Shown here: positions 8,647 through 36,374 of the stretch, piece after piece | How positions within the stretch are numbered: position 1 is the stretch's first letter | Layout: each line of letters starts with the position of its first letter | Source of the DNA: a virus | Taxonomy: Duplodnaviria > Heunggongvirae > Uroviricota > Caudoviricetes | Length of the DNA: 64,000 nt | Direction: 5' to 3' (one strand) | Virus record (IMG/VR): IMGVR_UViG_3300027608_000011 | Made by a program: the position numbers and the translations under genes | Notes under the pieces: model-generated | Databases searched by the model: none | Told to the model about the DNA's origin: nothing | The model's input: only the letters and a program-made list of their open reading frames with translations

Positions 8647-9477
8647 ATGGCAAAGAAAATACAAACACAAACGCAGACTAACATAGATCTTGACAACATC
8701 TTTAAGACTGGTACAGCTCGTCCTGTTGTTAAGCATACGGAAAAGCCCAAGGTTAAGCCTGTACAGGATAAGCCTAAAGTTGTAAACATTAACAAGGCCA
8801 ATGTCTCTAAAACATTAGGTGCTACAAGTAAAATACAGCCTACACAGGCCATGCAGGATATGCTAGGCAAGATGCTAGACATTAAACTTGACGCCGACTT
8901 GCCTGCTTACTTGGATGAGAATTACATTGACTTAGAAGCTACAGTAAATTTATCTTTGGAAGAAACTATACTGTTTAACGATAGTGGCATTGAGCCCAAG
9001 CCCCCAGAGACCTTGCCCACAGTTATAGTTAAGACTACTACATTGGCAACCACCGCAGAACACGCATTACGCAAGGCAGGCTACTTGGTACCGGATTTCC
9101 ACCAAGTAGCGGCACTGCCTGGTAACGTTAAAGACCAAATTAGACAGCTAGGACGTAGTGTGTTTAAGACTATGACAATTACGCCTACTAACAAAATCTT
9201 TGTAGTAGCTAACTTAGGCGGACAGGGTCCTAACACAGACAGAGAAGTGCAAAGTGTGGCAGAATGGGTTAGAAGCAATGGTCAGGACTATGGTAACGGC
9301 TCTATCAACTTTGATAGGTCTATACCAGGGTATAAAGCAGAGACACATTTATATACGGCGGCAGGCATTACGTGGTTGTTAGTTAAAGACTTTGCCGGAC
9401 AATACATTTATGCCTGGCCTGAAAAGGAAAGTTTGTTTAGGATAGAAGTTAACAAGTTATTAAAAATATTTCATTAA
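8647..9477 (+). CDS. hypothetical protein (276 aa)
   Basis: ORF tightly following the previous gene. Confidence 0.55.
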   Translation: MAKKIQTQTQTNIDLDNIFKTGTARPVVKHTEKPKVKPVQDKPKVVNINKANVSKTLGATSKIQPTQAMQDMLGKMLDIKLDADLPAYLDENYIDLEATVNLSLEETILFNDSGIEPKPPETLPTVIVKTTTLATTAEHALRKAGYLVPDFHQVAALPGNVKDQIRQLGRSVFKTMTITPTNKIFVVANLGGQGPNTDREVQSVAEWVRSNGQDYGNGSINFDRSIPGYKAETHLYTAAGITWLLVKDFAGQYIYAWPEKESLFRIEVNKLLKIFH

Positions 9478-9509
9478 AAAACGGCTAGTCAATAAATAGC
9501 AGTTTAAAT

Positions 9510-9583
9510 GCCCCGGTGACGGAATTGGTATACGTGTTGGTCTTAGAAGCCAAATTTTAGGAGTTCGAGTCTCCTCTGGGGCA
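9510..9583 (+). tRNA. type I tRNA with anticodon TAG (Leu anticodon but no long variable arm)
   Basis: acceptor GCCCCGG/CTGGGGC, AC stem TTGGT/GCCAA loop CTTAGAA, 5 nt variable loop, T-arm AGGAGTTCGAGTCTCCT, A73, CCA. Confidence 0.55.
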
Positions 9584-9728
9584 CCATTAATAGTTTACAT
9601 ATAAATGCTTTCTGAGTAGCTACACTGGAATAACACTGAACTTGACTTATTCTGCAGAACGGTCAAGAGGTGCCAGGAAGAGCAGGGCTACCGTGGATTC
9701 AAGCGCCACAGAGAGCACCTATATGTAT

Positions 9729-9799
9729 GCGGGGTTCGTAAAATGGTATTACCCTATCCTTCCAAGTTAGAGTCAGGAGTTCGATTCTCCTACCCCGCT
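9729..9799 (+). tRNA. tRNA-Gly (anticodon TCC)
   Basis: close to E. coli Gly(UCC): D-arm TCGTAAAATGGTATTACC, loop CTTCCAA, U73, CCA. Confidence 0.85.
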
Positions 9800-9832
9800 C
9801 CATAATTTTATAGTTAGTGTAGCATACTGAAT

Positions 9833-10300
9833 ATGTTACAAAGTAAATTAAAGAAGAAAATGTTACATCTAGTACAAAATCTTAGTGATAAATTTGCTCT
9901 TCATTTGAATGAAGATCCAGTTCGACCAAACATACCACATGTGGACCGTGTCGGCAGTAACAAGGATATTTTTGTTTTAAGAGACGAAGCCGGTAAAGCT
10001 AAGGCTATTACTTGTGTGAGTTATCAACAAACTATTCCTACCAATGAAGCAGGCTTATTTGAACAAGCAGACTTGCCAAACATAGCAGTATTTTACACAA
10101 TATGGAGTTACAAGGCAGGCGCAGGCAAGCAATTAATTTTTGATGCAGTAAGACATATACGAGCAACAAAAAGTGATGTTGTTAGATTTGTTACTCTTAG
10201 TCCAAAGACAGATACTGCAAAGAAGTTCCATTTACGCAACGGTGCAACTGTGCATAGAGAAAATACTGACACAGTTAATTACGAATATTTGGGGGTGTAG
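9833..10300 (+). CDS. hypothetical protein (155 aa)
   Basis: ORF; its stop codon lies inside the first nucleotides of tRNA-Ala. Confidence 0.4.
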   Translation: MLQSKLKKKMLHLVQNLSDKFALHLNEDPVRPNIPHVDRVGSNKDIFVLRDEAGKAKAITCVSYQQTIPTNEAGLFEQADLPNIAVFYTIWSYKAGAGKQLIFDAVRHIRATKSDVVRFVTLSPKTDTAKKFHLRNGATVHRENTDTVNYEYLGV

Positions 10301-10363
10301 CTCAGTTGGGAGAGCGGCTGGTTTGCAACCAGTAGGTCGCAGGTTCGATCCCTGTCTCCTCCA
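10291..10363 (+). tRNA. tRNA-Ala (anticodon TGC)
   Basis: G3-U70 identity pair, loop TTTGCAA, D-arm GCTCAGTTGGGAGAGC, A73, CCA. Confidence 0.9.
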
Positions 10364-10366
10364 CCA

Positions 10367-10595
10367 GAAAACCCGGACGCCCTTGTCCGTTATACAAAGG
10401 GGGTGAGGCAATCACCATAGACAGTGCTAGGTACGCTAGGACTTAACCTCACGATCCCATTTACGGATACGGAAATAGCCCAGGGTAAGGTACATCGCCT
10501 GCGCCATAAGCAGAAATGATGTGGACAGAGTAACCGCTCAGTCTGGGGCTCCTGTGGTGGGAGTAGCCGGACACTAATTCACACTAAGTTAAATA
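10367..10595 (+). ncRNA. GC-rich non-coding segment downstream of tRNA-Ala (candidate structured RNA)
   Basis: 230 nt with no ORF or SD and markedly higher GC than the flanks. Confidence 0.25.
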
Positions 10596-10600
10596 CGTGC

Positions 10601-11203
10601 ATGAGATACACAATAATAGAAGATTGCAGTCCTTACTACGTTCGATTTACATTTGAAGGTTTAGATAAAATAGTACAGTTCATAAAAGAACATGATCACT
10701 TAGTACATCTACATAATAAGTTTATAGGATATAGTCATTTAGACTTTCATGAAGATATTGCATTGCAAATAATGGACATGTTGCCAATGAGCAATCTTGT
10801 TCCGTTTAACAAAGAAAGAGTTGCTATTTTCGAAACTCCGCCTGGCGGTGGATGCGGAATACATAAGGACGGAATGTGGTCACTGACTAGCTTTAACATA
10901 ATCATAGAAACACATGACGAGTTATGCGAAACAACGTTTTACAGCGATATCGAAATGAGGCACAGCCAACCAACTGGAATGCCATATGTTAGGCATATAT
11001 TTTCAGATTATAATAAGTTAGCTATGTTTAAACCTATAAAATCTATGGTAGCCAAAGAAGGAGAAATGATATTGTTTAATCCTAACATATGGCATGCTTG
11101 GCAAAATATTAAATCTCCATATAAGCGAAGAGTAGTTACATTACGTCTAGTAGATCCTAGTGCTGTGACTTTTGACGAAATGAAAAATAAATTGTTTACA
11201 TAA
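10601..11203 (+). CDS. 2OG-Fe(II) oxygenase/cupin-like protein
   Basis: 200 aa; HxD (GIHKDG) and downstream His (WHAW) motif arrangement. Confidence 0.5.
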   Translation: MRYTIIEDCSPYYVRFTFEGLDKIVQFIKEHDHLVHLHNKFIGYSHLDFHEDIALQIMDMLPMSNLVPFNKERVAIFETPPGGGCGIHKDGMWSLTSFNIIIETHDELCETTFYSDIEMRHSQPTGMPYVRHIFSDYNKLAMFKPIKSMVAKEGEMILFNPNIWHAWQNIKSPYKRRVVTLRLVDPSAVTFDEMKNKLFT

Positions 11204-11254
11204 TTCACCATTACACACGGTGTACAATAGGATAAGTAGTGTGTAAACAAATAT

Positions 11255-11325
11255 CGCGGGCAGGGCGGCCACCACTCCGGTCTCATAAGCCAGGAGCATC
11301 CCAGGTTCAAATCCTGGGCCCGCAA
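11255..11325 (+). tRNA. tRNA-Met (anticodon CAT), initiator-like
   Basis: CGCGGGC...GCCCGCA acceptor with C1-A72 mismatch as in bacterial tRNA-fMet, loop CTCATAA, T-arm CCAGGTTCAAATCCTGG, ends GCAACCA. Confidence 0.7.
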
Positions 11326-11340
11326 CCATTAAATAGTGTT

Positions 11341-11910
11341 ATGAAGGACAGAGACTTTTATTCGAATATTAATATTCCCTTGCCAAATATAGATTGGCAA
11401 ACTGTGTGGGGCGACAGTTCACCTATTGGTGAAACCACACCACGTTGGAAACCGATTATAGACTTAAACAATATTTGGCCTACAGAAATACATGAAAAGT
11501 TTAAAAGCATAGGACTCAGGCTATCAATGGCAAGAGTGTTTAAATGGCACAGTCGGCCTTTCTTCCCATGGCATATCGATGGCAATGAAAAAGGCACTAC
11601 AAAATGTGCATTGAATTGGGTAGTGCAAGGTATCGGGGTTATTCAATGGAATGATAGTATGATACTGGATGGACATACAAATGGTCTAGCAACTGCCGCC
11701 GCGGCCGGTCGGTTTAATGATCCTTATACTTGTCAAACGTTGCCACATGAAAAACAATATTTGGTTGATACTTCGGTTCCTCACAGAGTTGTGGTAGGTG
11801 AAGAAATGAAAGATCGAATTACAGTGAGTATATTGTTCCGTGATAATTGGCTATGGCCTTATTATAGAACAAGAGATAAACTTGCTAGTGTGGGTCTAAT
11901 AGCTGAATGA
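11341..11910 (+). CDS. HxD-cupin paralog family member (AspH/2OG-oxygenase-like)
   Basis: start moved to the Met downstream of the tRNA; PWHIDG and CALNWVVQG family motifs. Confidence 0.55.
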   Translation: MKDRDFYSNINIPLPNIDWQTVWGDSSPIGETTPRWKPIIDLNNIWPTEIHEKFKSIGLRLSMARVFKWHSRPFFPWHIDGNEKGTTKCALNWVVQGIGVIQWNDSMILDGHTNGLATAAAAGRFNDPYTCQTLPHEKQYLVDTSVPHRVVVGEEMKDRITVSILFRDNWLWPYYRTRDKLASVGLIAE

Positions 11911-12448
11911 AATCTTCAAAACCTATAATAGGTGTCACGCTTAAAAACATTCTATGAGCATCGGTAGTTTGAACTTTAGCATGTGGATGATCTGTTCTTA
12001 GTAACATTGCAGAGTCCATAGTTAAACAGAATCTATCTAATTCTACTGCTCCAGTTGGTTGTTCCGAATACGAAGTTGCTTTATACTGTCCGTTACCAAT
12101 TGACTCTAATCGTTCTACAACACTATCTACAGTATAAAAAATTGTGTCGGCACCAATACCACAATTTTGAATGGGTATATTAAGTGCAACAGGTCGTGGA
12201 TCGCGATGTATCATTTTATACATTTTATCATTGACTATAGCATTTGGTGTAGTATAATGTAATACTGCAATGTTACTAACAGGAAAATTATTTTGTAGTT
12301 TACGAAAATAATTAGAATCAAAATCATCTAAGTTAATCATTTGGCCATGTCCTTGTCGACCACGGCCTTTGAAAAGTTGTATTAACTCTTGCCTATCATC
12401 CTCAGTATACATTAATGCAGGTAGAGATATTTTATAATATAGCATCAC
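11885..12448 (-). CDS. HxD-cupin paralog family member
   Basis: 187 aa; MIHRD...VALNIPIQNCGIGADTIFY. Confidence 0.6.
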   Translation of the reverse strand: MMLYYKISLPALMYTEDDRQELIQLFKGRGRQGHGQMINLDDFDSNYFRKLQNNFPVSNIAVLHYTTPNAIVNDKMYKMIHRDPRPVALNIPIQNCGIGADTIFYTVDSVVERLESIGNGQYKATSYSEQPTGAVELDRFCLTMDSAMLLRTDHPHAKVQTTDAHRMFLSVTPIIGFEDFIQLLDPH

Positions 12449-12481
12449 AATATTTAGTTGAATAATAAATAGTTTTAATAC

Positions 12482-12554
<73 letters not shown>

Positions 12555-12650
12555 CCAAAGTTTTGTGGTAAGGAAAGTAAAAGGAGAATGGGCAAGTCTG
12601 TCGCTACTAAACGTCTGACTAGATACCTCACCTGCCATAATTAATTATAC

Positions 12651-12724
12651 CCGTGTGTAGCTCAGCCTGGTAGAGCTCTGCGTTTGGGACGCAGTGGTCG
12701 CATGTTCGAATCGTGTCACACGGA
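12651..12724 (+). tRNA. tRNA-Pro (anticodon TGG)
   Basis: C1-G72, AC stem CTGCG/CGCAG loop TTTGGGA, T-loop TTCGAAT, A73, CCA. Confidence 0.85.
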
Positions 12725-12732
12725 CCAATTTT

Positions 12733-12805
12733 AGGACTTTAGCTCAGTTGGTAGAGCGTCTGCCTTACACGCAGAATGTCGTCAGTTCGAACCTGGCAAG
12801 TCCTA
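12733..12805 (+). tRNA. tRNA-Val (anticodon TAC)
   Basis: acceptor AGGACTT/AAGTCCT, AC stem TCTGC/GCAGA loop CTTACAC, T-arm GTCAGTTCGAACCTGGC, A73, CCA. Confidence 0.85.
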
Positions 12806-12815
12806 CCATAAATGC

Positions 12816-12844
12816 TTGACAATGTCAACTGTGTAGTATATAAT
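12816..12844 (+). promoter_or_regulatory. sigma70-type promoter TTGACA-17-TATAAT
   Basis: consensus hexamers preceding the stem-closed element. Confidence 0.5.
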
Positions 12845-12849
12845 ATATT

Positions 12850-13110
12850 AAATTGTAATTAGTATGAACGTACCCCTCGGCGGGGACTGCTACAAGTGAG
12901 AAGTAGGATATTACGCATGCCACTGACCCACACGTTGTGAAACGCAAAGTTATGCTCGATGCCTGTATTAAGAATATCGGGTACCCCCGAGGCTCCATTG
13001 ATGCAAGAATACCCTGCCAGATGTATGTCGAGTTCCAACGTTCATGACGTTGACTGTCCAGACGTTTCACTGTCGTAACGTAGTTTTAGTATGTTCATAC
13101 TAATTATAAT
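12850..13110 (+). ncRNA. candidate 260 nt structured RNA closed by a 17 bp terminal stem, between tRNA-Val and tRNA-Ser
   Basis: TAATTAGTATGAACGTA...TAGTATGTTCATACTAATTA inverted repeat; interior GC-rich with CCTCGG/CCGAGG long-range pairing; no ORF; own promoter. Confidence 0.4.
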
Positions 13111-13111
13111 T

Positions 13112-13202
13112 GGAGAGCTGGGTGAGCGGCTGAAACCACCTTCCTGCTAAGAAGACGTCCGGGCATAAACCCGGACCGAGGGTTCGAATCCCTCGCTCTC
13201 CA
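13112..13202 (+). tRNA. tRNA-Ser (anticodon GCT), type II
   Basis: D-arm GGGTGAGCGGCTGAAACC, loop CTGCTAA, variable-arm hairpin CGTCCGGGCATAAACCCGGACC, T-arm GAGGGTTCGAATCCCTC, CCA. Confidence 0.85.
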
Positions 13203-13214
13203 CCAATAAATCTA

Positions 13215-13883
13215 ATGTATCAATTCATACCCGTAAATATTTCTCAGCACGAAGCAATATTAGGTAAAGATTTCAGCGCAAGATTTGCCACAGAAATGTT
13301 TAACTACTATGCACCGTTTAAGCGGAGAAATCGTAAAATACAAATAGCCAAAGAAACGTGGGAATATGCAGTCGCTGATAGTATCGATAATGCTACATGG
13401 ACTGGTGCAGGGTCAAGTGTGGTCGATGTTGTTACTCCATTGGCAGATTTCGATGTTAAAGGATTAAGCGCAAAAGATATATTATCTATTAGTTCAGAGG
13501 CCAGCTACTTGCAAAATTTACAAAGCATCAATGATGGCTTTGTTAACTTGATTAACGAAAGCGATTTCACTGGACTGTATAACATGTTTGTTGCTCCGTT
13601 AAAAACCAAGCTGAAAGATACAAATAACTTGCATATTCTTGTGATTGTACGCATAAACAATGACAAAAGTGTATGCTATGCACTATTAAAAGTTGTCCCT
13701 AGTAACTTGAGCTTAGATGAGTTCATTAATAAAATTCATATGAAGACACCCCGAGTTATGTACGTACCTATGATTGATAGTAAATACGGTAATACAGTTT
13801 TTACAGTGGCTAAACGTAGACTAGAACTAAGAGTCGATTGTAAAGGGCTGTCGCCATACATGGTGACTTCGCATACCATATAA
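13215..13883 (+). CDS. hypothetical protein (222 aa)
   Basis: ORF immediately after tRNA-Ser. Confidence 0.55.
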   Translation: MYQFIPVNISQHEAILGKDFSARFATEMFNYYAPFKRRNRKIQIAKETWEYAVADSIDNATWTGAGSSVVDVVTPLADFDVKGLSAKDILSISSEASYLQNLQSINDGFVNLINESDFTGLYNMFVAPLKTKLKDTNNLHILVIVRINNDKSVCYALLKVVPSNLSLDEFINKIHMKTPRVMYVPMIDSKYGNTVFTVAKRRLELRVDCKGLSPYMVTSHTI

Positions 13884-13922
13884 TACTCAATCATAAATAT
13901 GTGTACTTAATGAAAGATACAC

Positions 13923-14738
13923 ATGAAACAACTTATATTGTTGGTACTATTTACTGTTAGTAATCTAGCAAATGCGTGGGAACAACGTGCCCCACTGCCA
14001 CCACAAGCATGCCAAGTACATAGCCCTTACGGTTTTGCACAAACACAGCGACCAACGCTACCAATTTGCCGCGAAGCATATCTAGTAGCCTATGATGCTC
14101 CTGTAAAGATTCCTGCTTATGTGGCATATACACTAACCCCTCCCAATGCATTAGGATGTTTTCCACGTACAAATGCTTTTGTTCCTGACCAATCCTTAAA
14201 TGGCACAGGTGCTCGTCCAGATGACTATGCTGGCACAGGCTACGACAAAGGACACGCCGCCCCCGATGGTGACTTGAGTTGGAGTCAGCAAGTGGAGTAC
14301 GAATCATTTCTAATGACTAACATGTATCCACAGCACGGAAGTTTGAACCGTGGCATTTGGAAACTGTTAGAAACAGCAGTTCGCGGTTGGGCAGTACAAA
14401 CGAATCAAAGTTATACAATTTTTGTTGGTGCGTTCTACGGTGCGAATGACCCAACAATTGGTAATGGTGTCATTGTTCCACATGGCTATTACAAGATTGT
14501 AATCAATAATAATACAAAACAAATTGCAGGCTGGACCTTTCCGCATACTAAGCCATACGTAAACTTAGGCAACGACTTAACAGTATTTCGTAAGCCAGTA
14601 GCTGACATTATGAAACAAGCCGGAGTACAGTACAAGTTTCCAGCAGGTGCGATTGAAATTGCCCCAGGTCGAGAATGGCCGGTAGACTTTGGTGCATTAA
14701 CTAATGCCAAACGTGCTAAGTGTGGCCGACCAGAATAA
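13923..14738 (+). CDS. secreted DNA/RNA non-specific endonuclease (Serratia NucA / EndoG family)
   Basis: signal peptide MKQLILLVLFTVSNLANA; DKGHAAP (DRGH-like active site) and NMYPQ motifs. Confidence 0.65.
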   Translation: MKQLILLVLFTVSNLANAWEQRAPLPPQACQVHSPYGFAQTQRPTLPICREAYLVAYDAPVKIPAYVAYTLTPPNALGCFPRTNAFVPDQSLNGTGARPDDYAGTGYDKGHAAPDGDLSWSQQVEYESFLMTNMYPQHGSLNRGIWKLLETAVRGWAVQTNQSYTIFVGAFYGANDPTIGNGVIVPHGYYKIVINNNTKQIAGWTFPHTKPYVNLGNDLTVFRKPVADIMKQAGVQYKFPAGAIEIAPGREWPVDFGALTNAKRAKCGRPE

Positions 14739-14775
14739 TACTTGACATTACACTATAATATAGTATAATTATAAT

Positions 14776-15486
14776 ATGATAGAAACATTAAAATCCGGGA
14801 TCAATCCCGACAAATACATTTATAAAACTAAGTTAACATTTGGACTAGAATTTGGTGAACGTCTGCGACAGCAAGCAAATAGGGACGACAGTTATTTTCC
14901 TCCTCGTGCGAACTATGAAAATGGTCTTAAAGATCCTTGGGGTGTGTACGAAAGTATCGGCTTAGAAAAAAGTAAAGAGCTACTACGTAGATATAAACAA
15001 ATTAAAAATACTTACCCGGGCGAGGATCCTATAGAATTTAAGCAATTTTATCTGCCGGATGATGCCGCACAAGAACTGTTAGATTTGACTCCGCAGTTTC
15101 TTAAAGACTTGAGTCCAGGAGAGCCTGTACCGATTTTTCAAATTGGTGAAGGTGGTAGTGTATTACCTGCACATCATGGGCACAAACGCAAGTGTTCTAT
15201 ATTTTTACTTTTACAAAGTAGTAATGAACAAACAAGATGGTATGAGCCCACTGCACCATTTGAAACAATATCTACTACTAGGATTCCAGATTTAGATAAA
15301 ATTGAATGTGTAGTAAATGCCACGATAGAACAAGGTAACTGGTACGTGTTTAATCACTTAACATGGCATAGCGTACACAGATATGGCGGCGCAAAACGCA
15401 TTAATGTAGGACTAGATTTTGATAATGTAAGGGCAGAGGACTTGGTTGCAGTAATCAAAGAACACGAAAAAACTTTGATAGATTAA
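14776..15486 (+). CDS. hypothetical protein, possibly distant cupin paralog
   Basis: 236 aa; PAHHGH and WHSVH histidine clusters. Confidence 0.4.
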   Translation: MIETLKSGINPDKYIYKTKLTFGLEFGERLRQQANRDDSYFPPRANYENGLKDPWGVYESIGLEKSKELLRRYKQIKNTYPGEDPIEFKQFYLPDDAAQELLDLTPQFLKDLSPGEPVPIFQIGEGGSVLPAHHGHKRKCSIFLLLQSSNEQTRWYEPTAPFETISTTRIPDLDKIECVVNATIEQGNWYVFNHLTWHSVHRYGGAKRINVGLDFDNVRAEDLVAVIKEHEKTLID

Positions 15487-16076
15487 GTAGCACTAGTTAA
15501 TAACAAGTGCAACCTGGCAGTATTAGATCCGTTATGAAATGTATGTGTTATATTAATTGGATCCAAATACCATACTCTATCATCTGCTGGCATGTGTAAC
15601 TTATACACATCCTTGTCATCTTTAAACAACCAATAACAATCAGTGTTGGTCACTATAGGCACATGATACCTGTTTGGGGTATGCGGATCAGTATGAAACC
15701 TATAACCATTGTTAGGACCTAACCAAACAAGCTGTGCTCGCCCACAGAATCCATGATGTCTGTCATACAGTTTATGAACTAATTTACCCACATATAAATC
15801 TTCGGCCTCTTTTAAATGCTCGGTGAAATTGGCTTCATCTATGTTCTGTTCTACTAAATGTGCATGGCTGGCACTATATTTGCGCCACGCATCCTCTCCG
15901 ACCAGTCCAGGTAAATGCGTTAAATTAATAGCAAAGCCTAGCCTAGAACATATATCGTCAATATCTAGACAAAGCCTATTTAATAGTGTTATAATACTGT
16001 CATATAGTTGTTTTTGATCTACGGTTATTCCGTCAATTGGATAACAATACGGAGGCAAAATATCAACTTGTTTCAT
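15483..16076 (-). CDS. Asp/Asn beta-hydroxylase-like cupin (HxD...H)
   Basis: 197 aa; RFHTDPH and THTFHNG motifs. Confidence 0.5.
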   Translation of the reverse strand: MKQVDILPPYCYPIDGITVDQKQLYDSIITLLNRLCLDIDDICSRLGFAINLTHLPGLVGEDAWRKYSASHAHLVEQNIDEANFTEHLKEAEDLYVGKLVHKLYDRHHGFCGRAQLVWLGPNNGYRFHTDPHTPNRYHVPIVTNTDCYWLFKDDKDVYKLHMPADDRVWYLDPINITHTFHNGSNTARLHLLLTSAT

Positions 16077-16107
16077 ATACGTATTTACACTATATAAATA
16101 TTATAAA

Positions 16108-16863
16108 ATGCACTATAATCCAACTTTATCCAGACTGCTTCAACTAGCAGGTTACGCAAGTTTATTCTTTTTATTATACTGGACTGTGGCCGAAGATTGG
16201 ACCTGGATCATTTATAGCCTGTTGTATTATAAAATTGTAGTTGGATTGTTTGGAAATCAAATAGCGCAACATAGATATTTTAGTCATAACAGTTTTAAAG
16301 CGACCCCATTGGTTCATAAATTACTAGCTATAGTATCTTGTACTACAGCAATTAGTCCGATAGTGTATGCAAGTGTACATCGTCAACATCACAAATACAG
16401 TGACACAATCAAAGATGTACATAGTCCGAATAATGGATTTATACATAGTGCGTTTACTTGGTCATGGAACATGGATAAAAAAGTGAAACCGGCAATTGAT
16501 TTAATGAGAGACGAGTTTTTGTTAATATTGCACGAAAATATGTACAACATTATTATCTTTGGCAACATAATGTTATGCTTAATTGATTGGCGCTTATCAG
16601 CATTTATATTTTTAGCAGGCATAGGCTGGAATTACTTGCACATGGGCTTGTTTAGAAGTGCATTATTTCACATGAGGCTACCAGGAAGCTACAAAAATTT
16701 TGACGTAGCTGATGATAGTTGGAATAACAAATATTTACAGATACTTGATATAGGTGAAGGATTACATAATAATCATCACAAGTATCCTAGTAAATACAAT
16801 CAAGCAACAGCGCCCGGCGAATATGATTTTGCAGGATGGGTAGTTAAAAAATTGTTTATATGA
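16108..16863 (+). CDS. membrane delta-9 fatty-acid desaturase (DesC/SCD-like), paralog 1 of 4
   Basis: His boxes HRYFSH, HRQHHKYSDTIKDVHSP, GEGLHNNHHKYP. Confidence 0.75.
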   Translation: MHYNPTLSRLLQLAGYASLFFLLYWTVAEDWTWIIYSLLYYKIVVGLFGNQIAQHRYFSHNSFKATPLVHKLLAIVSCTTAISPIVYASVHRQHHKYSDTIKDVHSPNNGFIHSAFTWSWNMDKKVKPAIDLMRDEFLLILHENMYNIIIFGNIMLCLIDWRLSAFIFLAGIGWNYLHMGLFRSALFHMRLPGSYKNFDVADDSWNNKYLQILDIGEGLHNNHHKYPSKYNQATAPGEYDFAGWVVKKLFI

Positions 16864-17657
16864 TAGAAGACAAACAGATAGGGGCACGACCTTTAGAATT
16901 TTTATGGAAACGAGTTGGCCTTTTTAGTGTGCCGATTACAATACTATGGATGTTCTTTAATCCCAGTGACTGGCCATGGCTATTAGCAGGAATTATATTT
17001 GGCAAGTTTTTTGTTGGCATGATAGGTAAAAATATTGCTTTCCATCGTTACATCTGTCATAGAAGTTTTAAAACTAGCAAAGCTAAACATTACTTTTTAC
17101 TGTTTGCAAATTCATTTAGTACCAACAGTCCGTTAACTGCGGCCACAGTACATAGATACCACCATAAACACAGTGATACTAATAAGGACCCACATAGCCC
17201 TAAGATATATGGTTTTTGGAATTCATTGTTTTGGAGAGAACGAGTAGTACAGAATAAAAAAGCAATGCAGTTGCCGGTTGACTTAATGAGAGATCCTTCA
17301 CTTATGTGGTTACATAACAATTGCATTTTAGTGTATGGCGTGTACGCCTTGTTATGTCTGTTAATTAGTTGGAAGTTAATGGTATTTTGTTTGTTCTTTG
17401 CTACAGGATTAACTGCAATAAACAACAGTATTATTTTTATTGCATTAGTACATATGAAGATTTGGGGAAGTTACAGAAACTTTGACACAGCAGACCAGAG
17501 TTATAATTCTAAATTTTTGGAAATACTAAGTCCCGGAGAAGGCTATCATAATAATCATCATATGTATCCGGGCAAGTACAACATGGCAATTATGCCAGGC
17601 GAATTTGATTTAGCAGGATGGATTGTCGATAAGGTATTTGTTAATGAAATTAAATGA
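16860..17657 (+). CDS. delta-9 fatty-acid desaturase paralog 2 of 4
   Basis: HRYICH, HRYHHKHSDTNKDPHSP, GEGYHNNHHMYP; start overlaps previous stop. Confidence 0.75.
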   Translation: MIEDKQIGARPLEFLWKRVGLFSVPITILWMFFNPSDWPWLLAGIIFGKFFVGMIGKNIAFHRYICHRSFKTSKAKHYFLLFANSFSTNSPLTAATVHRYHHKHSDTNKDPHSPKIYGFWNSLFWRERVVQNKKAMQLPVDLMRDPSLMWLHNNCILVYGVYALLCLLISWKLMVFCLFFATGLTAINNSIIFIALVHMKIWGSYRNFDTADQSYNSKFLEILSPGEGYHNNHHMYPGKYNMAIMPGEFDLAGWIVDKVFVNEIK

Positions 17658-18468
17658 TATTAATAAAACTGCATTACTAATCAGTACACTTCGTATATCA
17701 AGTATCATAAGTATACCTTTTTGTTTTCTATGGGTTTGTTTTAACCCCAGTGACTGGCCTTGGCTATTGGGCGGCATTATTTGGGTTCGTCTATATGTGC
17801 AACCATTGGTTCGTAGCATGATGTTACATAGATATTTTAGTCATCGTAGTTTTAAAGTTAGTGACCGGGTGCATAAATTTTTCTGTATATCGTCTATATT
17901 TGCGGCTGTGAGTCCAGTTACTGCGGCCGCAATACATAGATTCCACCATAAATTCAGCGACACACCTAAGGACCCACATAGCCCATTAAATGGTATATGG
18001 AGTAGTTTAAGTTATAATCGAAAATTAGTATTAGGATTTAACTACAGTGGGTATATGGATAAAGCAACAGTACCATTTGATTTACTACGTGACAGGTCGG
18101 CGAGGTTTATACATAACAATCTAGCCGTGTTATGCTTAGGTACAATGTTATTATGTGTGTTAGTGTCGTGGAAATTACTTATATTTGGATATGTATTTGG
18201 TGTAGGCCTTGCTCTTGCTGAAACCGGAATCCTTAACATTGTATATGGCCATAAAAAAGCATGGGGTGGATATAGAAATTTTGATACGACTGATAACAGT
18301 TACAATACAAAATGGATCAATTGGTGGTTCGGAGACGGATTTCATAATAATCATCATGCTAAACCGGGCGCTTGGAATCAAAGTACAAAACCAGATGAAA
18401 TAGATTATGTTGCGTATGCAATAAAATATATATTTGCAGAAAAGGATAGCTTACGTGAAATACATTAA
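17623..18468 (+). CDS. delta-9 fatty-acid desaturase paralog 3 of 4
   Basis: HRYFSH, HRFHHKFSDTPKDPHSP, GDGFHNNHHAKP. Confidence 0.7.
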   Translation: MSIRYLLMKLNDINKTALLISTLRISSIISIPFCFLWVCFNPSDWPWLLGGIIWVRLYVQPLVRSMMLHRYFSHRSFKVSDRVHKFFCISSIFAAVSPVTAAAIHRFHHKFSDTPKDPHSPLNGIWSSLSYNRKLVLGFNYSGYMDKATVPFDLLRDRSARFIHNNLAVLCLGTMLLCVLVSWKLLIFGYVFGVGLALAETGILNIVYGHKKAWGGYRNFDTTDNSYNTKWINWWFGDGFHNNHHAKPGAWNQSTKPDEIDYVAYAIKYIFAEKDSLREIH

Positions 18469-19231
18469 TCTTAGCAACATCGCTAGTATTGCGTTTTTGT
18501 TTACAATAGGATGGATTATTATAAATCCTGCAGATTGGTATTGGCTGGTAATTATGTTACTGTGGGAAAAGATTGTTATAGAGATTCTTAGTAAAGAGAT
18601 TGCTAGCCATAGATACTTTAGTCATAAAAGTTTTAAAACAGGAAAGTTCAGACACTATTTTTTAACAGCTTGTACAATATTTGGCCCAGGCGATCCTATT
18701 ACTATTACTGCTATGCATCGCAAGCATCATAAAAATGCAGATACCAAAGATGATCCTCACAGCCCAATGGACGGGGTGTGGAAGATTTTAAGTTATACAA
18801 TTTTTACAGAACAGTTACATACAAATTTACGTGCCCGTGCAAAAAGTTTTCCATGGCCGGTTGATTTAATACGCGATCCTGTTCTTGTATTCTGTCATAA
18901 ACATGCCAGTAAAGTGTTTACAGTTATATGTTTGTTGTTGGCCATTGTTAGTTGGAAGTTCGTTGTGTTTGTATTATTAACTGGCAGACGTGTGTTTCAG
19001 ATTAATACAATTATCTGCGGACTCATACTCACACATTCAAAGTTACCTGGCGGTTATAGAAATTTCGATACTGCTGATAACAGTTATAATACTCCGTGGC
19101 TTGGAATATTTCATCCCGGGGAAGCATACCACAACAATCACCACCACCAGCAAGGTGCATGGAATTTTGCAATGAAGCCAAATGAATTTGACAGTGTTGG
19201 ATGGATCATAGGAAAGGTATTTGCAAAATGA
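18434..19231 (+). CDS. delta-9 fatty-acid desaturase paralog 4 of 4
   Basis: HRYFSH, HRKHHKNADTKDDPHSP, GEAYHNNHHHQQ. Confidence 0.7.
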   Translation: MQKRIAYVKYINLSNIASIAFLFTIGWIIINPADWYWLVIMLLWEKIVIEILSKEIASHRYFSHKSFKTGKFRHYFLTACTIFGPGDPITITAMHRKHHKNADTKDDPHSPMDGVWKILSYTIFTEQLHTNLRARAKSFPWPVDLIRDPVLVFCHKHASKVFTVICLLLAIVSWKFVVFVLLTGRRVFQINTIICGLILTHSKLPGGYRNFDTADNSYNTPWLGIFHPGEAYHNNHHHQQGAWNFAMKPNEFDSVGWIIGKVFAK

Positions 19232-19776
19232 ATTACTATCCGTTAACTTTACCTATTACTAATCCACTTAATCCTAATTTTGTATTCCCCGATGTAACCA
19301 GCATACCTGATCCGTGGACCATATGGTTACCCGAAGCTAAAGATATATTGTCTGATGAAGTATTTGCATGGTTTAAAGAAATTAAGTCAATGCCACATTT
19401 TGTACATTTATTTTATGGCAAAGCAGGTCGCGAATGTAAAATACACACAGACGGAATTAAAAATCCAGTGCCTGCCGCAATCAATTGGGTACTGAGCGGA
19501 CAGTCCAGTGAAATGATATGGTACGACCCGTTGACTGAAGGTAACATAGAATACGTAACGGGTAGTAAGCGAGAACACATATATTGGTTAGACAACGAAG
19601 TTACAGAAATTGCAAGACATCAAATTACAGTACCAACATTAGTAAGAACAGATATACCACATAAGACAATAAACAATAGTAATGACGACAGATGGTGTCT
19701 TAGTGTTAGGTTTTGGCCGGGTAAGCCATGGAATAAAACTGTTGATATGTTAAAGGACTATATAAAGCCTCTTTAG
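19201..19776 (+). CDS. HxD-cupin paralog family member
   Basis: KIHTDG...AAINWVLSGQSSEMIWYD. Confidence 0.55.
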   Translation: MDHRKGICKMNYYPLTLPITNPLNPNFVFPDVTSIPDPWTIWLPEAKDILSDEVFAWFKEIKSMPHFVHLFYGKAGRECKIHTDGIKNPVPAAINWVLSGQSSEMIWYDPLTEGNIEYVTGSKREHIYWLDNEVTEIARHQITVPTLVRTDIPHKTINNSNDDRWCLSVRFWPGKPWNKTVDMLKDYIKPL

Positions 19777-19838
19777 TTCAATGGATAGAATTAGAGTCTT
19801 CGAAACTCAGGATGGTGGTTCGATTCCATCAAGGGGCG
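19767..19838 (+). tRNA. tRNA-Arg (anticodon TCG), tentative
   Basis: acceptor GCCTCTT/AAGGGGC (one G-U), loop CTTCGAA on a 4 bp stem, T-arm GGTGGTTCGATTCCATC, G73, CCA. Confidence 0.55.
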
Positions 19839-20260
19839 CCATTAAGGTTACGTGCAGTTCTAAGCACTGAACTCATAATTTTAAAATTGTTGCTGGCCAT
19901 TTCCAATAACTCGTTGGCTGGATTAGTACTAGTGCTAGCCATACCAAATGCTATTTCCCCCATATCAGCGAAATACTGTTTTGTAGGCCATTTGCTATTC
20001 TTAATTTGCCAGCCATCGATGAATAAACATTCTTCTCCAATATCTTGTAATGCATTGGCCTTTCGTGTTCCAAACAAAGATTGAGCAGTTAGTATTTTAA
20101 GTGAAATAGGTTGTTCCCAAATATTAGTGCGTTCCATTGTTTTGGCAATCACATGAACCAAAAATGCTTCCACTTCAGTATCCAAAATTATATGACTTTT
20201 ACCCTGGGCTTCCATTACAATTTCCCAGCCTGCTTTAACGTATGGTTGCCAATATTTCAT
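19829..20260 (-). CDS. hypothetical protein (143 aa)
   Basis: ORF; 3' end abuts the tRNA on the opposite strand. Confidence 0.45.
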   Translation of the reverse strand: MKYWQPYVKAGWEIVMEAQGKSHIILDTEVEAFLVHVIAKTMERTNIWEQPISLKILTAQSLFGTRKANALQDIGEECLFIDGWQIKNSKWPTKQYFADMGEIAFGMASTSTNPANELLEMASNNFKIMSSVLRTARNLNGAP

Positions 20261-20275
20261 AAAAATATTTATGTT

Positions 20276-20304
20276 GACACGTAAATGAATATATAGTATA
20301 ATAC
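20276..20304 (+). promoter_or_regulatory. sigma70-type promoter TTGACA-17-TATAAT upstream of tRNA-Arg(TCT)
   Basis: consensus hexamers. Confidence 0.5.
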
Positions 20305-20312
20305 AGTATTAC

Positions 20313-20384
20313 CTGGCGTTCGTTCAATGGACAGGACAACATTCTTCTAAAGTGTGAATAGTGGTTCGATTCCACTACGCCGGG
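20313..20384 (+). tRNA. tRNA-Arg (anticodon TCT)
   Basis: acceptor CTGGCGT/ACGCCGG, AC stem ACATT/AGTGT loop CTTCTAA, T-arm AGTGGTTCGATTCCACT, G73, CCA. Confidence 0.7.
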
Positions 20385-20406
20385 CCAGTTAACATAAAGG
20401 AAATAT

Positions 20407-20607
20407 ATGGCACGTATTACATCTGAAGAAGCAGTAAATGCTATCGGGAACCGTTTTGATTTGGTATTAATTGCGTCAGCGCGAGCAAGGGAACTAATGC
20501 GCGGCCATCGTGCAAAAGTAGAAAGCAATAACAAGCCCATTGTTACAGCCCTTAGAGAAATTGAACAGGGCAAAATTGGTAGAGATTATCTAAATAAAAT
20601 TAAATAA
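20407..20607 (+). CDS. rpoZ: DNA-directed RNA polymerase omega subunit homolog
   Basis: 66 aa [30 protein letters not shown]...[13 protein letters not shown] aligns over its length with E. coli RpoZ ([30 protein letters not shown]...VIALREIEEGLI). Confidence 0.8.
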   Translation: [66 protein letters not shown]

Positions 20608-20626: not shown

Positions 20627-20824
20627 ATGGAAATATCTCGAGTAGCAGAACAAAATGCAGAAATGTATCGACTAATGGAAATTAAAAAGTTAGATCAACG
20701 CCACGAGGAACTTAGAGTAGAAGCAGAGCGTGTTAAAGCACGTATAAAAGATAACGAAGATAAACGAATAGAAATGAATCGCCAAATGAATCGAGCGGGA
20801 CAAAACGTAGACAAGTTAGCGTAA
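20627..20824 (+). CDS. small charged coiled-coil protein (65 aa)
   Basis: ORF with SD; Glu/Arg/Lys-rich heptad-like sequence. Confidence 0.45.
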   Translation: MEISRVAEQNAEMYRLMEIKKLDQRHEELRVEAERVKARIKDNEDKRIEMNRQMNRAGQNVDKLA

Positions 20825-20833: not shown

Positions 20834-21373
20834 ATGCCATGGATTCAAAACGTTGGAATGGGTGATATTAAACTGGGCCATCACTTTGACCCAGGTGTCA
20901 ATGCTATGCTGATTCAAATTGTGGATCCGCCCGGCAACTTTCCCACTCCGTTGTACACATTCAAACAAGTTCATCAGTTCCAATTCCTTGATGTAGAGGA
21001 AAAGGATAAAGTTGACGATGAAGAAATGCGTTGTAGCCAAGAGCAGGCCGATGAACTTGTTCGACTACTAGAACACGCATTGGATAACAGAATGAATGTA
21101 ATTGTTCATTGCCATGCTGGTATTTGCCGTAGCGGCGCAGTATGTGAAGTTGGTGTTATGTTGGGCTTTAACGACACAGAAATGTTCCGTAGTCCCAATC
21201 TGCTGGTCAAGCATCGCATGATGAAAGCCTTGGGGTGGACATATGACGAACAGGAGTCTCACTCTGTCAATGGGACTCCTGTTGACGAAGACTGGGGCAA
21301 CAAGTATGAAAAAGTGTATACACTGGCCGATGCTCGCCGCAAGTACAGAGAAAATTACGAAGGTGATATCTAA
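20834..21373 (+). CDS. protein-tyrosine/dual-specificity phosphatase
   Basis: CX5R signature VHCHAGICRSGA. Confidence 0.75.
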   Translation: MPWIQNVGMGDIKLGHHFDPGVNAMLIQIVDPPGNFPTPLYTFKQVHQFQFLDVEEKDKVDDEEMRCSQEQADELVRLLEHALDNRMNVIVHCHAGICRSGAVCEVGVMLGFNDTEMFRSPNLLVKHRMMKALGWTYDEQESHSVNGTPVDEDWGNKYEKVYTLADARRKYRENYEGDI

Positions 21374-27176: not shown

Positions 27177-27440
27177 ATGACAGTAACAGCCGAACAAATC
27201 CAAGCAGAATTTATTGATTTAATTAAAACGGTACTACGTAGAAAAGATACTGATTCTTACACCGGCGATACTGATCTGATCAAAGACTTAGACCTAGATA
27301 GCCTAGACATTCTAGAAGTTCTAGTTGAAATTCAAGAGAAGTACGAATTTGATATTCCTGATAAAAAGGATGCAGAGCGTTTGACTACAATTGGTTCAGC
27401 TAGTGCTTTCATTGCTGAACTTATTAATCGCAAAGCCTGA
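27177..27440 (+). CDS. acpP: acyl carrier protein
   Basis: 87 aa acidic protein with DLDLDSLDILEVLVEIQEKYEFDIPD (DSL phosphopantetheine-attachment motif). Confidence 0.8.
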   Translation: MTVTAEQIQAEFIDLIKTVLRRKDTDSYTGDTDLIKDLDLDSLDILEVLVEIQEKYEFDIPDKKDAERLTTIGSASAFIAELINRKA

Positions 27441-35576: not shown

Positions 35577-35605
35577 TTGACAATAAATCCAATTAAATAT
35601 ATAAT
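35577..35605 (+). promoter_or_regulatory. conserved early promoter, copy 1 (TTGACAATAAATCCAATTAAATATATAAT)
   Basis: member of an 8-copy family sharing hexamers and a 17 nt spacer. Confidence 0.6.
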
Positions 35606-35762
35606 ACTTAAACTATGAAGACTACTATTCAAATTGTTATCCCTAGACAGCGCACCCGTGCTCATAAGGTTCTGTTTGACCAAAATTCACCCTTTAAACA
35701 AAAAGTAGTACAATCAAAGGTGCAGTATACTCGCAGGGCTAAACACCCTGGAAAATCTGTCG

Positions 35763-35972: not shown

Positions 35973-35997
35973 CAATAAATCCAATTAATTATATAAT
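35969..35997 (+). promoter_or_regulatory. conserved early promoter, copy 2
   Basis: TTGACAATAAATCCAATTAATTATATAAT. Confidence 0.6.
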
Positions 35998-36370: not shown

Positions 36371-36374
36371 TTGG

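What the first reader, a model, noticed from the sequence alone, without database searches (positions are those of the whole stretch)
20407..20607. RNA polymerase omega subunit (rpoZ) homolog in a phage-like context
The 66 aa product aligns along its length with bacterial RpoZ ([19 protein letters not shown]...-ALREIE-G-I). Omega is a core-enzyme assembly and stability factor and, as far as I know, is not a commonly reported phage gene. With every recognisable promoter here being host sigma70-like, a phage-supplied omega could tune host RNAP, for example assembly or ppGpp responsiveness.
Basis: partly seen in the sequence, partly recalled or inferred. Interest (0 to 1): 0.7.

Follow-up and report, generated by a model that had tools for sequence, protein, structure and literature searches.

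The report
Phage-encoded RNA polymerase omega subunit
A large uncultivated freshwater phage carries its own conserved copy of omega, the smallest subunit of bacterial RNA polymerase, and so do dozens of related viral contigs; this suggests these phages place their own part in the host's transcription machine, which I found described nowhere.

Summary
ORF 20407-20607 (+) encodes a 66-aa protein that matches RpoZ/omega far above the curated cut-offs (Pfam PF01192 E=1.8e-17; TIGR00690 E=1.3e-15). Its predicted four-helix fold superposes on omega in solved RNA polymerases (TM 0.82).

The context is a jumbo phage. It has 22 tRNA genes, a tail fibre longer than 1498 aa, 18 perfect sigma70 consensus promoters all on one strand, and a match to a 219-kb metagenome contig.

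The gene is not a stray host fragment.
- Homologues lie on 43 IMG/VR viral contigs (up to 352 kb), almost always in or beside tRNA islands. Bacterial rpoZ instead sits directly upstream of spoT.
- The 79 dereplicated phage-type sequences separate from the sampled cellular omegas (bootstrap 72%).
- They carry their own signature (Ser6, Glu29) and evolve under purifying selection (dN/dS 0.02-0.2).
- No isolated phage, PHROG family or paper I could find has it.

Most likely mechanism (inferred, not shown): host sigma70-RNAP expresses the gene early, and the protein occupies the omega site on host beta-prime. There it would sustain or modify polymerase stability, processivity and the ppGpp site-1 pocket. 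I rate it a new variant of a known kind, with moderately high interest.

The parts
20407..20607 (+). Phage rpoZ-like gene: 66-aa omega subunit homologue (the stop codon is included)
   Evidence: PF01192 E=1.8e-17. TIGR00690 E=1.3e-15. PDB omega chains E=2e-15. AF2 model pLDDT 88, and all top 50 Foldseek hits are RNAP omega chains, best TM 0.82.
20397..20401 (+). Shine-Dalgarno-like AAGGA, 5 nt upstream of the ATG
   Evidence: Read directly from the sequence.
20274..20302 (+). Perfect sigma70 consensus promoter TTGACA-N17-TATAAT, likely driving tRNA-Arg, rpoZ and the downstream ORFs
   Evidence: 12/12 match. It is one of 18 perfect sites in the window, all on the + strand, against 0.09 expected by chance. 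Its use as a promoter is inferred.
20313..20387 (+). tRNA-Arg(TCT), 19 nt upstream of rpoZ, the last gene of the tRNA island
   Evidence: ARAGORN. Rfam RF00005, 48.5 bits.
505..20387 (+). tRNA island: 22 tRNA genes, all on the + strand, interspersed with accessory genes; rpoZ sits at its 3' edge
   Evidence: The same association is seen in 33 of 43 IMG/VR loci, which have at least 5 tRNAs in the fetched flanks (8.07 tRNAs per 10 kb against 0.08 around bacterial rpoZ).
20627..20824 (+). 65-aa ORF of unknown function, 19 nt downstream of rpoZ, probably co-transcribed
   Evidence: No Pfam or PHROG hit. It has no homologue in the other 49 phage-context loci compared (43 IMG/VR contigs plus L005-L008, L112, L113).
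20834..21373 (+). Cys-based DSP/PTP-type phosphatase (HCxxGxxR), the only gene loosely co-located with phage rpoZ across lineages
   Evidence: PF22785 E=1.2e-7 and PF00782 E=7e-7. It lies on the same strand, within 0.2-6.2 kb of rpoZ, in 19 related loci.
59505..64000 (+). Tail-fibre gene (over 1498 aa, runs off the window end): the phage hallmark gene in the window
   Evidence: phrog_496 tail fibre E=3.3e-30, phrog_2589 tail protein E=5.6e-24. In sister contig L054 it is 1694 aa and is followed by an NlpC/P60 minor tail protein (phrog_30, E=3.6e-39).

Best explanation
This is a functional omega-subunit gene resident in the genome of an uncultivated jumbo phage of about 219 kb. It belongs to a distinct, old, phage-borne branch of the RpoZ family.

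Proposed mechanism:
1. Host sigma70-RNAP transcribes it early, together with tRNA-Arg(TCT), from a perfect consensus promoter. The promoter sequence is shown; its use is inferred.
2. The 66-aa protein keeps the omega core that binds beta-prime. It folds into the same four helices and occupies the omega site of the host RNA polymerase, either on newly assembled core or on omega-free core. This step is inferred.
3. The phage thereby keeps the polymerase it depends on fully loaded with omega, which in E. coli supports beta-prime folding, resistance to termination and processivity. It also replaces the host's version of the ppGpp site-1 wall with a phage-specific one: MAR is kept, position 6 is Val->Ser and position 29 is Gln->Glu. 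This step is inferred. Whether the gain is quantitative (more omega) or qualitative (altered regulation) is not resolved.
For: Identity:
- Profile, PDB-sequence and fold matches all point to omega.
- Residues 2-5 are MARI, and the motifs [8 protein letters not shown], RAR and TALREIEQG are conserved.

Phage residence:
- Tail fibre, tRNA island, the 219-kb contig and phage-type neighbours.

Not a passenger gene:
- The identical protein occurs on 16 contigs in the same syntenic place.
- Homologues occur on 43 IMG/VR contigs and in the three other metagenome contigs whose context was checked, of 232-364 kb, all with phage-like context.
- dN/dS is 0.02-0.2 wherever dS is unsaturated.
- All 79 dereplicated phage-type sequences form one split against 14 cellular ones, bootstrap 143/200.
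- Signature residues Ser6 (89% in phage, 0% in cells) and Glu29 (95% in phage, 0% in cells).

Dependence on host RNAP:
- 18 perfect sigma70 promoters, all on the + strand, against 0.09 expected.

Known biology that makes the mechanism plausible:
- Omega chaperones beta-prime, and omega variants can poison core (PMC7700224).
- Omega residues 2-5 help form ppGpp site 1, which controls elongation (PMC7676912 and PMC10191844).
- Loss of omega lowers processivity and sensitises RNAP to termination (preprint PMC13192885).
Against: - There is no experimental or structural evidence here that the protein binds host beta-prime.
- The host is unknown.
- Only 64 kb of about 219 kb was seen, so a phage-encoded beta/beta-prime cannot be excluded.
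- Omega is dispensable in E. coli, so the selective benefit of extra omega is not obvious.
- The cellular sample in the tree is small and biased to beta- and gamma-proteobacteria, so monophyly is provisional.
- Of the top 120 phage-type metagenome proteins, 28 (23%) lack a MAR motif altogether and 8 more carry it only behind a possibly miscalled start. Site-1 involvement therefore cannot be general.
Confidence: 0.6

Rival explanations
1. Regulatory takeover. The phage omega exists mainly to change how host RNAP responds to (p)ppGpp at site 1, for example to blunt or re-tune the slowing of elongation when infection triggers the stringent response. On this view, supplying more omega is not the point.
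For: - Omega residues 2-5 line ppGpp site 1.
- The phage family has an invariant-like change next to them (V6S) and another at Q29E.
- About a quarter of phage-type omegas have remodelled or extended N-termini such as MTARY... and MSESRARY....
- Three phage lineages carry a stand-alone SpoT-like HD hydrolase 4-9 kb from rpoZ (L006, L011, L031).
- The window also encodes a MazG pyrophosphohydrolase.
- A recent paper reports that the stringent response restricts phages in some phage-host contexts (PMC13483052 abstract).
Against: - The window's own protein keeps MARI, and site 1 uses main-chain atoms of residues 2-4, so binding may be unchanged.
- No SpoT-like hydrolase was found in the 64-kb window.
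- Site 1 is dispensable for the classical stringent response in E. coli.
- This overlaps with the best explanation rather than excluding it.
Confidence: 0.2
2. Docking adaptor. The phage omega presents a phage-specific surface on RNAP that recruits a phage transcription factor. This would resemble how the GTA activator GafA acts through host omega.
For: - GafA activates RcGTA genes through direct binding to omega (PMC9638019).
- The phage-specific conserved residues (S6, E29, the GR(D/E)YL C-terminal helix) are not found in the sampled cellular omegas.
- The family is monophyletic across very different phages.
Against: No conserved partner gene lies next to rpoZ. The only loosely co-located gene is a Cys-phosphatase, and the immediate downstream ORFs differ between lineages and have no domains.
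Confidence: 0.08
3. Subunit of a phage-encoded multisubunit RNAP. On this view omega chaperones a phage beta-prime-like protein rather than the host one.
For: - Some jumbo phages encode their own multisubunit RNAPs (PMC7598289).
- Only 64 kb of about 219 kb was inspected.
Against: - The characterised jumbo-phage RNAPs lack alpha and omega.
- No beta/beta-prime-like gene is in the window.
- None appears among the 25 families listed, of 76 matched, when 136 large ORFs flanking rpoZ in related contigs were scanned.
- The region uses perfect host sigma70 promoters.
- For one gene tested, a DnaE fragment, the closest isolated phages are PA5oct and CBB-like jumbo phages.
Confidence: 0.05
4. Inhibitory decoy. 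The phage omega is a 'poison' subunit that binds core tightly and shuts down host transcription, like the dominant-lethal E. coli omega mutants.
For: Dominant-lethal omega mutants that bind core more tightly and block initiation exist (PMC7700224).
Against: - The phage's own genes in this region depend on sigma70-RNAP, so global poisoning would be self-defeating.
- The sequence is a conservative, full-length beta-proteobacterial-type omega.
Confidence: 0.04
5. Artefact or passenger. The gene would be bacterial DNA mis-assembled or mis-binned as phage, or a recently captured host gene without function.
For: Phage databases do contain mislabelled bacterial rpoZ loci.
Against: - The same gene sits in the same place on independent assemblies from JGI, ENA and Logan.
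- No spoT follows it, and no gmk appears among the called neighbours.
- It is embedded among tRNAs and phage genes.
- It is only 58% identical to the best cellular omega found.
- It is under purifying selection and forms a phage-specific clade.
Confidence: 0.03

Closest known systems
Bacterial RNA polymerase omega subunit, RpoZ (PF01192 / TIGR00690), especially the short 66-67-aa form of Burkholderiales
   Same: - Sequence family, length and predicted four-helix fold.
- MAR N-terminus and the [8 protein letters not shown], RAR and ALREIE-G motifs.
- No 2-aa insertion relative to gamma-proteobacterial omega.
- 58% identity to a Comamonadaceae omega and about 50% to E. coli and Vibrio omega.
   Different: - It is encoded in a phage tRNA island instead of directly upstream of spoT (gmk-rpoZ-spoT is annotated in L110).
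- It belongs to a separate clade.
- It has family-specific residues Ser6, Glu29 and a GR(D/E)YL tail that are absent from the sampled cellular omegas.
Phage-encoded copies of host gene-expression parts (tRNAs, tmRNA, release factors, ribosomal proteins in large phages)
   Same: A small, host-derived component of the expression machinery is carried by large phages next to tRNAs, tmRNA and release-factor-like genes, and is kept under selection.
   Different: This is a core subunit of RNA polymerase rather than a translation component. I found no report of this.
Phage proteins that bind and redirect host RNAP (T4 AsiA/MotA/gp55/RpbA, T7 Gp2, Xp10 P7, P23-45 gp39)
   Same: The likely logic is the same: an early phage product that becomes part of, or sits on, host RNAP. 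This comparison rests on my own knowledge and on abstracts seen.
   Different: Apart from sigma-like gp55, those are phage inventions unrelated to RNAP subunits. This one is a true homologue of a core subunit and would replace its host counterpart.
Multisubunit RNAPs of phiKZ/AR9-like jumbo phages, and RPB6 homologues of nucleocytoplasmic large DNA viruses
   Same: A virus-encoded homologue of a cellular RNAP subunit. Giant eukaryotic viruses do encode RPB6-family subunits (my own knowledge).
   Different: The phiKZ-type enzymes have beta/beta-prime fragments but no omega (PMC7598289). Eukaryotic giant-virus RPB6 works within a virus-encoded polymerase. Here no viral catalytic subunits were seen and the promoters are host sigma70-type.

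Membership tests
RpoZ / RNAP omega (PF01192, TIGR00690) | Profile match above the curated family thresholds over most of the domain | tested here: met
   PF01192: 63.5 bits against cut-off 26, profile positions 3-51 of 53. TIGR00690 equivalog: 57.2 bits against 23.6, positions 1-59 of 60.
RpoZ / RNAP omega (PF01192, TIGR00690) | Omega fold as seen bound to beta-prime in solved RNAPs | tested here: met
   AF2 model: pLDDT 88, pTM 0.75, helices 5-13, 16-31, 44-53 and 59-65. Foldseek against PDB: all top 50 hits are omega chains, best 8tom_K with TM 0.82 and rmsd 2.4 A over 65 columns. This is a prediction, not a solved structure.
RpoZ / RNAP omega (PF01192, TIGR00690) | Conserved sequence blocks (N-terminal MAR, [16 protein letters not shown]) | tested here: met
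   All are present in the window protein and nearly invariant in 56 phage-type sequences.
RpoZ / RNAP omega (PF01192, TIGR00690) | Physical incorporation into RNAP core through beta-prime | not testable with these tools
   This needs co-purification or a complex model. The available structure tool takes single chains only.
RpoZ / RNAP omega (PF01192, TIGR00690) | Contribution of residues 2-5 to ppGpp site 1 (a proteobacterial feature) | tested here: inconclusive
   Residues 2-5 (ARIT) resemble host ARIT/ARVT, and site 1 uses the main chain of residues 2-4 (PMC10191844). Binding itself was not tested. Position 6 differs systematically (V->S).
Cellular (chromosomal) rpoZ gene | Proteobacterial gene order with spoT directly downstream of rpoZ (gmk upstream where annotated) | tested here: not met
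   All 54 bacterial genome loci, plus the two mislabelled 'phage' records, have a SpoT-like hydrolase 250-500 nt downstream of rpoZ, and the one annotated record (L110) reads gmk-rpoZ-spoT. The window has a tRNA upstream and an unknown ORF plus a phosphatase downstream, with no SpoT-like sequence in 64 kb.
Phage auxiliary (host-derived) gene | Located in a phage genome | tested here: met
   Tail fibre and minor tail protein. 22 tRNAs. The 219-kb contig. 43 IMG/VR contigs with homologues. UvsX-like, SSB, RnlA-like and pre-neck-appendage PHROG hits in the flanks of related loci. No terminase or capsid gene was seen within the stretches available.
Phage auxiliary (host-derived) gene | Maintained by selection and recurrent in independent viral genomes | tested here: met
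   dN/dS is 0.02-0.2 in ten or more within-subclade pairs with dS of 0.27-1.0. There are five or more sequence subfamilies on viral contigs (alignment). All 120 top metagenome clusters are of the phage type.
Jumbo-phage multisubunit RNAP (phiKZ/AR9 type) | Genome encodes split beta/beta-prime-like subunits, with transcription independent of host sigma70 promoters | tested here: inconclusive
   None were seen in the window or in the flanks of related loci, and the window has 18 perfect sigma70 promoters. About 155 kb of the genome was not available. The known enzymes lack omega.

The most novel reading that the evidence does not exclude
A widespread lineage of environmental jumbo phages replaces a core, non-sigma subunit of the host RNA polymerase with its own diverged version. 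This would reprogramme the enzyme from within, for example by changing ppGpp site-1 control of elongation and termination, or by creating a phage-specific docking surface. It would be the first case of core-subunit substitution as a phage takeover strategy.
Probability: 0.3. Interest if true: 0.85.

Novelty: new variant of a known kind. Interest (0 to 1): 0.65.

Why it matters
Phages are known to control host RNA polymerase with sigma factors, inhibitors, covalent modification or their own polymerases. A phage-borne copy of a core subunit is a different route, and as far as I could find it is undescribed.

- Omega's role is still debated: assembly chaperone, ppGpp site 1, sigma competition, processivity. 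A natural, diverged family kept by phages that rely on host sigma70-RNAP offers variants already filtered by selection (Ser6, Glu29, remodelled N-termini). These can be swapped into model RNAPs to ask what omega does when it matters.
- It adds transcription to the list of host expression machinery that large phages partly carry with them (tRNAs, tmRNA, release factors).
- It gives a marker gene for a large group of freshwater jumbo phages.
- It flags that public 'phage' records containing rpoZ are contaminated with bacterial DNA.

Tried and rejected
- Megablast of 5 kb around the gene against 50,697 phage records found nothing.
- tblastn of the protein against the same records gave 9 hits. Of these, H7 was inspected and has gmk-rpoZ-spoT, with its sister contig H8 taken to be the same. 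'Campylobacter phage A11a' (UNVERIFIED) has spoT-like sequence directly downstream, with its sister record A18a (H4) taken to be the same. Two are Salmonella WGS contigs. Three short unannotated records were not examined.
- PHROGs has no family for the protein.
- Two contig look-ups were wasted on minus-strand coordinates that cut off the start codon; one was then repeated correctly.
- A search for a conserved operon partner found none. The 65-aa ORF downstream is not conserved, the large ORFs directly after rpoZ in other lineages have no Pfam domain, and only a Cys-phosphatase is loosely co-located.
- A stand-alone SpoT-like hydrolase was found near rpoZ in three other phage lineages, but the window has none.
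- Rfam found only tRNAs, with no riboswitch or other RNA near the gene.
- A first tree script with Biopython timed out and was replaced by a numpy NJ.
- dN/dS between distant subfamilies is about 1 only because both rates are saturated, so those pairs were disregarded.
- A search with the most divergent subfamily (L045 type) gave only 10 proteins and no closer cellular relative.
- Ross et al. 2013 could not be read because it is not held.
- I did not try to walk along the 219-kb contig, because the look-up rules would have covered only about 30 kb more.

Full report
**1. The observation**

The ORF at 20407-20607 (+) is real. It has an ATG start, a TAA stop and 66 codons, with an AAGGA ribosome-binding motif 5 nt upstream. 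Its product matches Pfam PF01192 (RNA_pol_Rpb6) at E=1.8e-17 (63.5 bits against a cut-off of 26). It matches the NCBIfam equivalog model TIGR00690 (rpoZ) at E=1.3e-15.

Against all PDB sequences it finds only RNA polymerase omega chains, the best at E=2e-15. It has four helices.

**2. Is this a phage?**

Yes, on several independent grounds.
- The window holds 22 tRNA genes between 505 and 20387, all on the + strand. Rfam confirms 17 of them.
- From 59505 to the window end runs an ORF of more than 1498 aa that matches tail-fibre and tail families (phrog_496, E=3e-30).
- In a sister contig that ORF is 1694 aa and is followed by an NlpC/P60 minor tail protein (phrog_30, E=4e-39).
- The gene content is that of a jumbo-phage accessory region: a Ro60-like RNA-binding protein (phrog_850), radical SAM, ClpP, MazG, dCMP deaminase, a DnaE fragment, and many small ORFs on one strand. 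The DnaE fragment's closest isolated relatives are PA5oct and CBB-like jumbo phages.
- The window's proteins are found on a 219,487-bp metagenome contig.
- The window carries 18 perfect TTGACA-N16-18-TATAAT promoters, all on the + strand, where 0.09 are expected by chance. This region is therefore read by the host sigma70 holoenzyme.
- One of these promoters (20274-20302) lies directly before tRNA-Arg(TCT) (20313-20387) and the omega gene.

**3. Is the gene a stray piece of host DNA?**

No.
- The identical protein is on 16 contigs from different assemblies, in the same gene order.
- A scan of IMG/VR found homologues (39-69% identity) on 43 viral contigs of up to 352 kb.
- In 33 of these, the fetched flanks hold at least five tRNA genes and up to 34, and several also have a tmRNA. 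The density is 8.07 tRNAs per 10 kb, against 0.08 around bacterial rpoZ.
- All 54 bacterial loci retrieved from the genome collection have a SpoT-like hydrolase 250-500 nt downstream of rpoZ. The window and the viral loci do not.
- Three further metagenome relatives, on contigs of 232, 271 and 364 kb, also sit among small phage-like ORFs, fatty-acid desaturases, radical SAM genes, ClpS and release-factor-like genes.
- A PHROG scan of 136 large ORFs flanking the viral copies gave UvsX-like recombinase, SSB, RnlA-like ligase, pre-neck appendage and similar phage families. No RNAP catalytic subunit appeared among the 25 families listed, of 76 matched.

**4. A phage-specific branch of the family**

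- The top 120 metagenome clusters (of 1403 hits) all share one pattern: MARITS..A...[16 protein letters not shown].RG...V...N.P.[8 protein letters not shown].G.IGR(D/E)YL.K.
- Cellular omegas of beta- and gamma-proteobacteria read MAR(I/V)TVED...RARQ(L/M).
- After dereplication at 85% identity, all 79 phage-type sequences fall on one side of a single split in a neighbour-joining tree. The 14 cellular ones fall on the other. Bootstrap support is 143/200.
- Two positions are diagnostic. Residue 6 is Ser in 89% of phage sequences and Val in 93% of cellular ones. Residue 29 is Glu in 95% of phage sequences and Gln or Met in cellular ones. Neither phage residue occurs in the cellular sample.
- The nearest cellular omegas found are the short (66-67 aa) Burkholderiales type: a Comamonadaceae MAG at 58% and Trinickia at 54%. 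Like the phage protein, they lack the 2-aa insertion and the long acidic tail of gamma-proteobacterial omega.
- Within phage subclades where synonymous change is not saturated (dS 0.27-1.0), dN/dS is 0.02-0.2.
- The gene has therefore been kept functional in phages for a long time. It is not tracking host sequences as a freshly captured copy would.
- Caveats: the cellular sample is small and biased, and most metagenome sequences are called 'phage-type' from their sequence. Context was verified for the window's own protein and for three of the 120 relatives listed (P0003, P0051, P0064), and separately for the 43 IMG/VR loci.

**5. How it most likely works**

*Shown:*
- the gene is an omega homologue;
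- it is in a phage;
- it lies behind a perfect sigma70 promoter;
- the family is conserved and distinct.

*Inferred:*
- The protein is made early and binds the omega site on host beta-prime.
- Omega acts as a latch and chaperone for beta-prime, and mutant omegas can dominate the enzyme (PMC7700224).
- Omega residues 2-5, together with beta-prime, form ppGpp site 1 (PMC7676912). Site 1 governs pausing and elongation rather than the classical stringent response (PMC10191844).
- A 2026 preprint reports that loss of omega lowers processivity and sensitises RNAP to termination (PMC13192885).

A phage of about 219 kb with long co-directional gene arrays depends on host RNAP. It would gain from keeping that enzyme saturated with omega after host expression declines. 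The conserved phage-specific residues next to the ppGpp-binding N-terminus suggest that the phage version also alters regulation.

I put 0.6 on 'binds host RNAP at the omega site and sustains or modifies it'. Within that, I cannot separate the quantitative from the qualitative effect.

**6. Rivals**

- *Pure ppGpp re-tuning (0.2).* In its favour are the V6S change and the roughly 23% of family members with remodelled N-termini such as MTARY... and MSESRARY.... A stand-alone SpoT-like hydrolase also lies near rpoZ in three lineages. Against it, the window protein keeps MARI and the window has no such hydrolase.
- *Docking surface for a phage factor, by analogy with GafA-omega in the Rhodobacter gene transfer agent (0.08; PMC9638019).* It lacks a conserved partner gene.
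- *Subunit of a phage-encoded multisubunit RNAP (0.05).* This is disfavoured by the sigma70 promoters, by the absence of beta/beta-prime genes in everything seen, and by the fact that the known jumbo-phage RNAPs lack omega (PMC7598289). It is not excluded, because about 155 kb was unavailable.
- *Poison subunit (0.04).* This would also hurt the phage itself.
- *Artefact or passenger (0.03).* Section 3 contradicts it.

**7. Comparison with what is known, and novelty**

By every testable criterion the protein is a member of the RpoZ family. As a gene it fails the cellular context test (no spoT directly downstream of rpoZ) and belongs to a separate clade.

Evidence that it is undescribed in phages:
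- No PHROG family covers it.
- Of 50,697 deposited phage records, nine hold a match. The two records inspected, with their sister records, and the two Salmonella WGS contigs are bacterial DNA. The other three are short unannotated records that were not examined.
- Literature searches for phage, jumbo-phage or viral omega/rpoZ found nothing on the subject.

JGI's pipeline already labels some of these proteins 'RNA polymerase subunit omega'. The annotation therefore exists, but the biology is undescribed. I classify it as a new variant of a known kind: a phage-borne omega lineage.

**8. Verdict**

The finding is more general than one gene in one window. It is a conserved feature of a broad set of uncultivated, tRNA-rich jumbo phages. 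Interest is 0.65: a specialist would find a phage-encoded core RNAP subunit surprising, and the family offers natural variants for testing what omega does. The function remains inferred.

Noticed in passing
window 7046-56325 (18 sites), with a cluster at 35577-38219: There are 18 perfect sigma70 consensus promoters, all on the + strand (expected 0.09). Six of them, between 35577 and 38219, share the core AATCCAATTAA in the spacer (a seventh, at 36040, has AATTGAATTAA), each ahead of small ORFs. This looks like a repeated early-promoter cassette.
   Followed up: partly
window 16108-19231; also 27177-27440 and 43683-44042: Four tandem fatty-acid desaturase paralogues, plus an acyl-carrier-protein-like gene (PP-binding) and a 4'-phosphopantetheinyl transferase (ACPS) elsewhere in the window. 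Desaturases recur beside rpoZ in related contigs (L112, L113, L031). This is a possible phage lipid-remodelling module.
   Followed up: no
window 3159-3250; also L012, L030, L037, L038, L040, L051, L005, L011, L029: ARAGORN calls an unusually long (91-95 nt) tRNA-Ile(TAT) that recurs in many of the related phage tRNA islands. Rfam's tRNA model does not report it at gathering score in the window. It could be an intron-containing or otherwise atypical tRNA.
   Followed up: no
L010 11828-12228, L025 9330-9692, L027 8839-9235, L037 5898-6307, L038 7072-7489, L047 6976-7349: Phage-encoded tmRNA genes lie within a few kb of the phage rpoZ in six related viral contigs. Their tags include ANDEQFALAA, ANDSVYSLAA and ANANRAPAMAMAA, which may hint at host clades.
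   Followed up: no
L006 12137-12673, L011 10274-10798, L031 7751-8272: A stand-alone SpoT-like HD_4 hydrolase (178 aa, a candidate small alarmone hydrolase) lies 4-9 kb downstream of phage rpoZ in three lineages. This echoes the bacterial rpoZ-spoT pairing. It is absent from the window.
   Followed up: partly
window 20834-21373 and 19 related loci: A Cys-based DSP/PTP-like phosphatase (HCHAGICRS) stays on the same strand within 0.2-6 kb of phage rpoZ across several subfamilies. Its substrate is unknown.
   Followed up: partly
INPHARED records CAKLQH020000003.1 / CAKLQF020000004.1 ('Acinetobacter phage MD-2021a') and MG065691 / MG065686 ('Campylobacter phage A11a/A18a', UNVERIFIED): These 'phage' records contain bacterial chromosomal segments and are probably contaminated or mislabelled. 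CAKLQH020000003.1 (L110) has pilV/pilW, ispH and bfr around gmk-rpoZ-spoT, and MG065691 (L111) has spoT-like sequence directly after rpoZ. The sister records CAKLQF020000004.1 and MG065686 were not inspected.
   Followed up: partly
window 23561-24718: A SulP-family (sulfate permease) membrane transporter is encoded in the phage accessory region. It is present in some sister contigs (L001, L003) and missing in another (L002).
   Followed up: no
window 59505-64000+: The tail-fibre protein contains a long run of degenerate repeats of the form T.EQTARATADSAL.SQITTLS..., followed by Gly/Ala-rich and Ig-like segments.
   Followed up: no
L040 8185-8261; L041-L047 (e.g. L045 11016-11103): ARAGORN predicts a CTA-anticodon tRNA (called tRNA-Pyl, a potential amber suppressor) in one related contig. 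It also predicts tRNA-Ser with the unusual anticodon ACT next to rpoZ in the most divergent subfamily.
   Followed up: no
window 4065-5480: A Ro60-like (DUF2828/DUF7788, phrog_850) RNA-binding protein sits inside the tRNA island. It is shared at 43-48% identity with many T4-like and jumbo phages.
   Followed up: no
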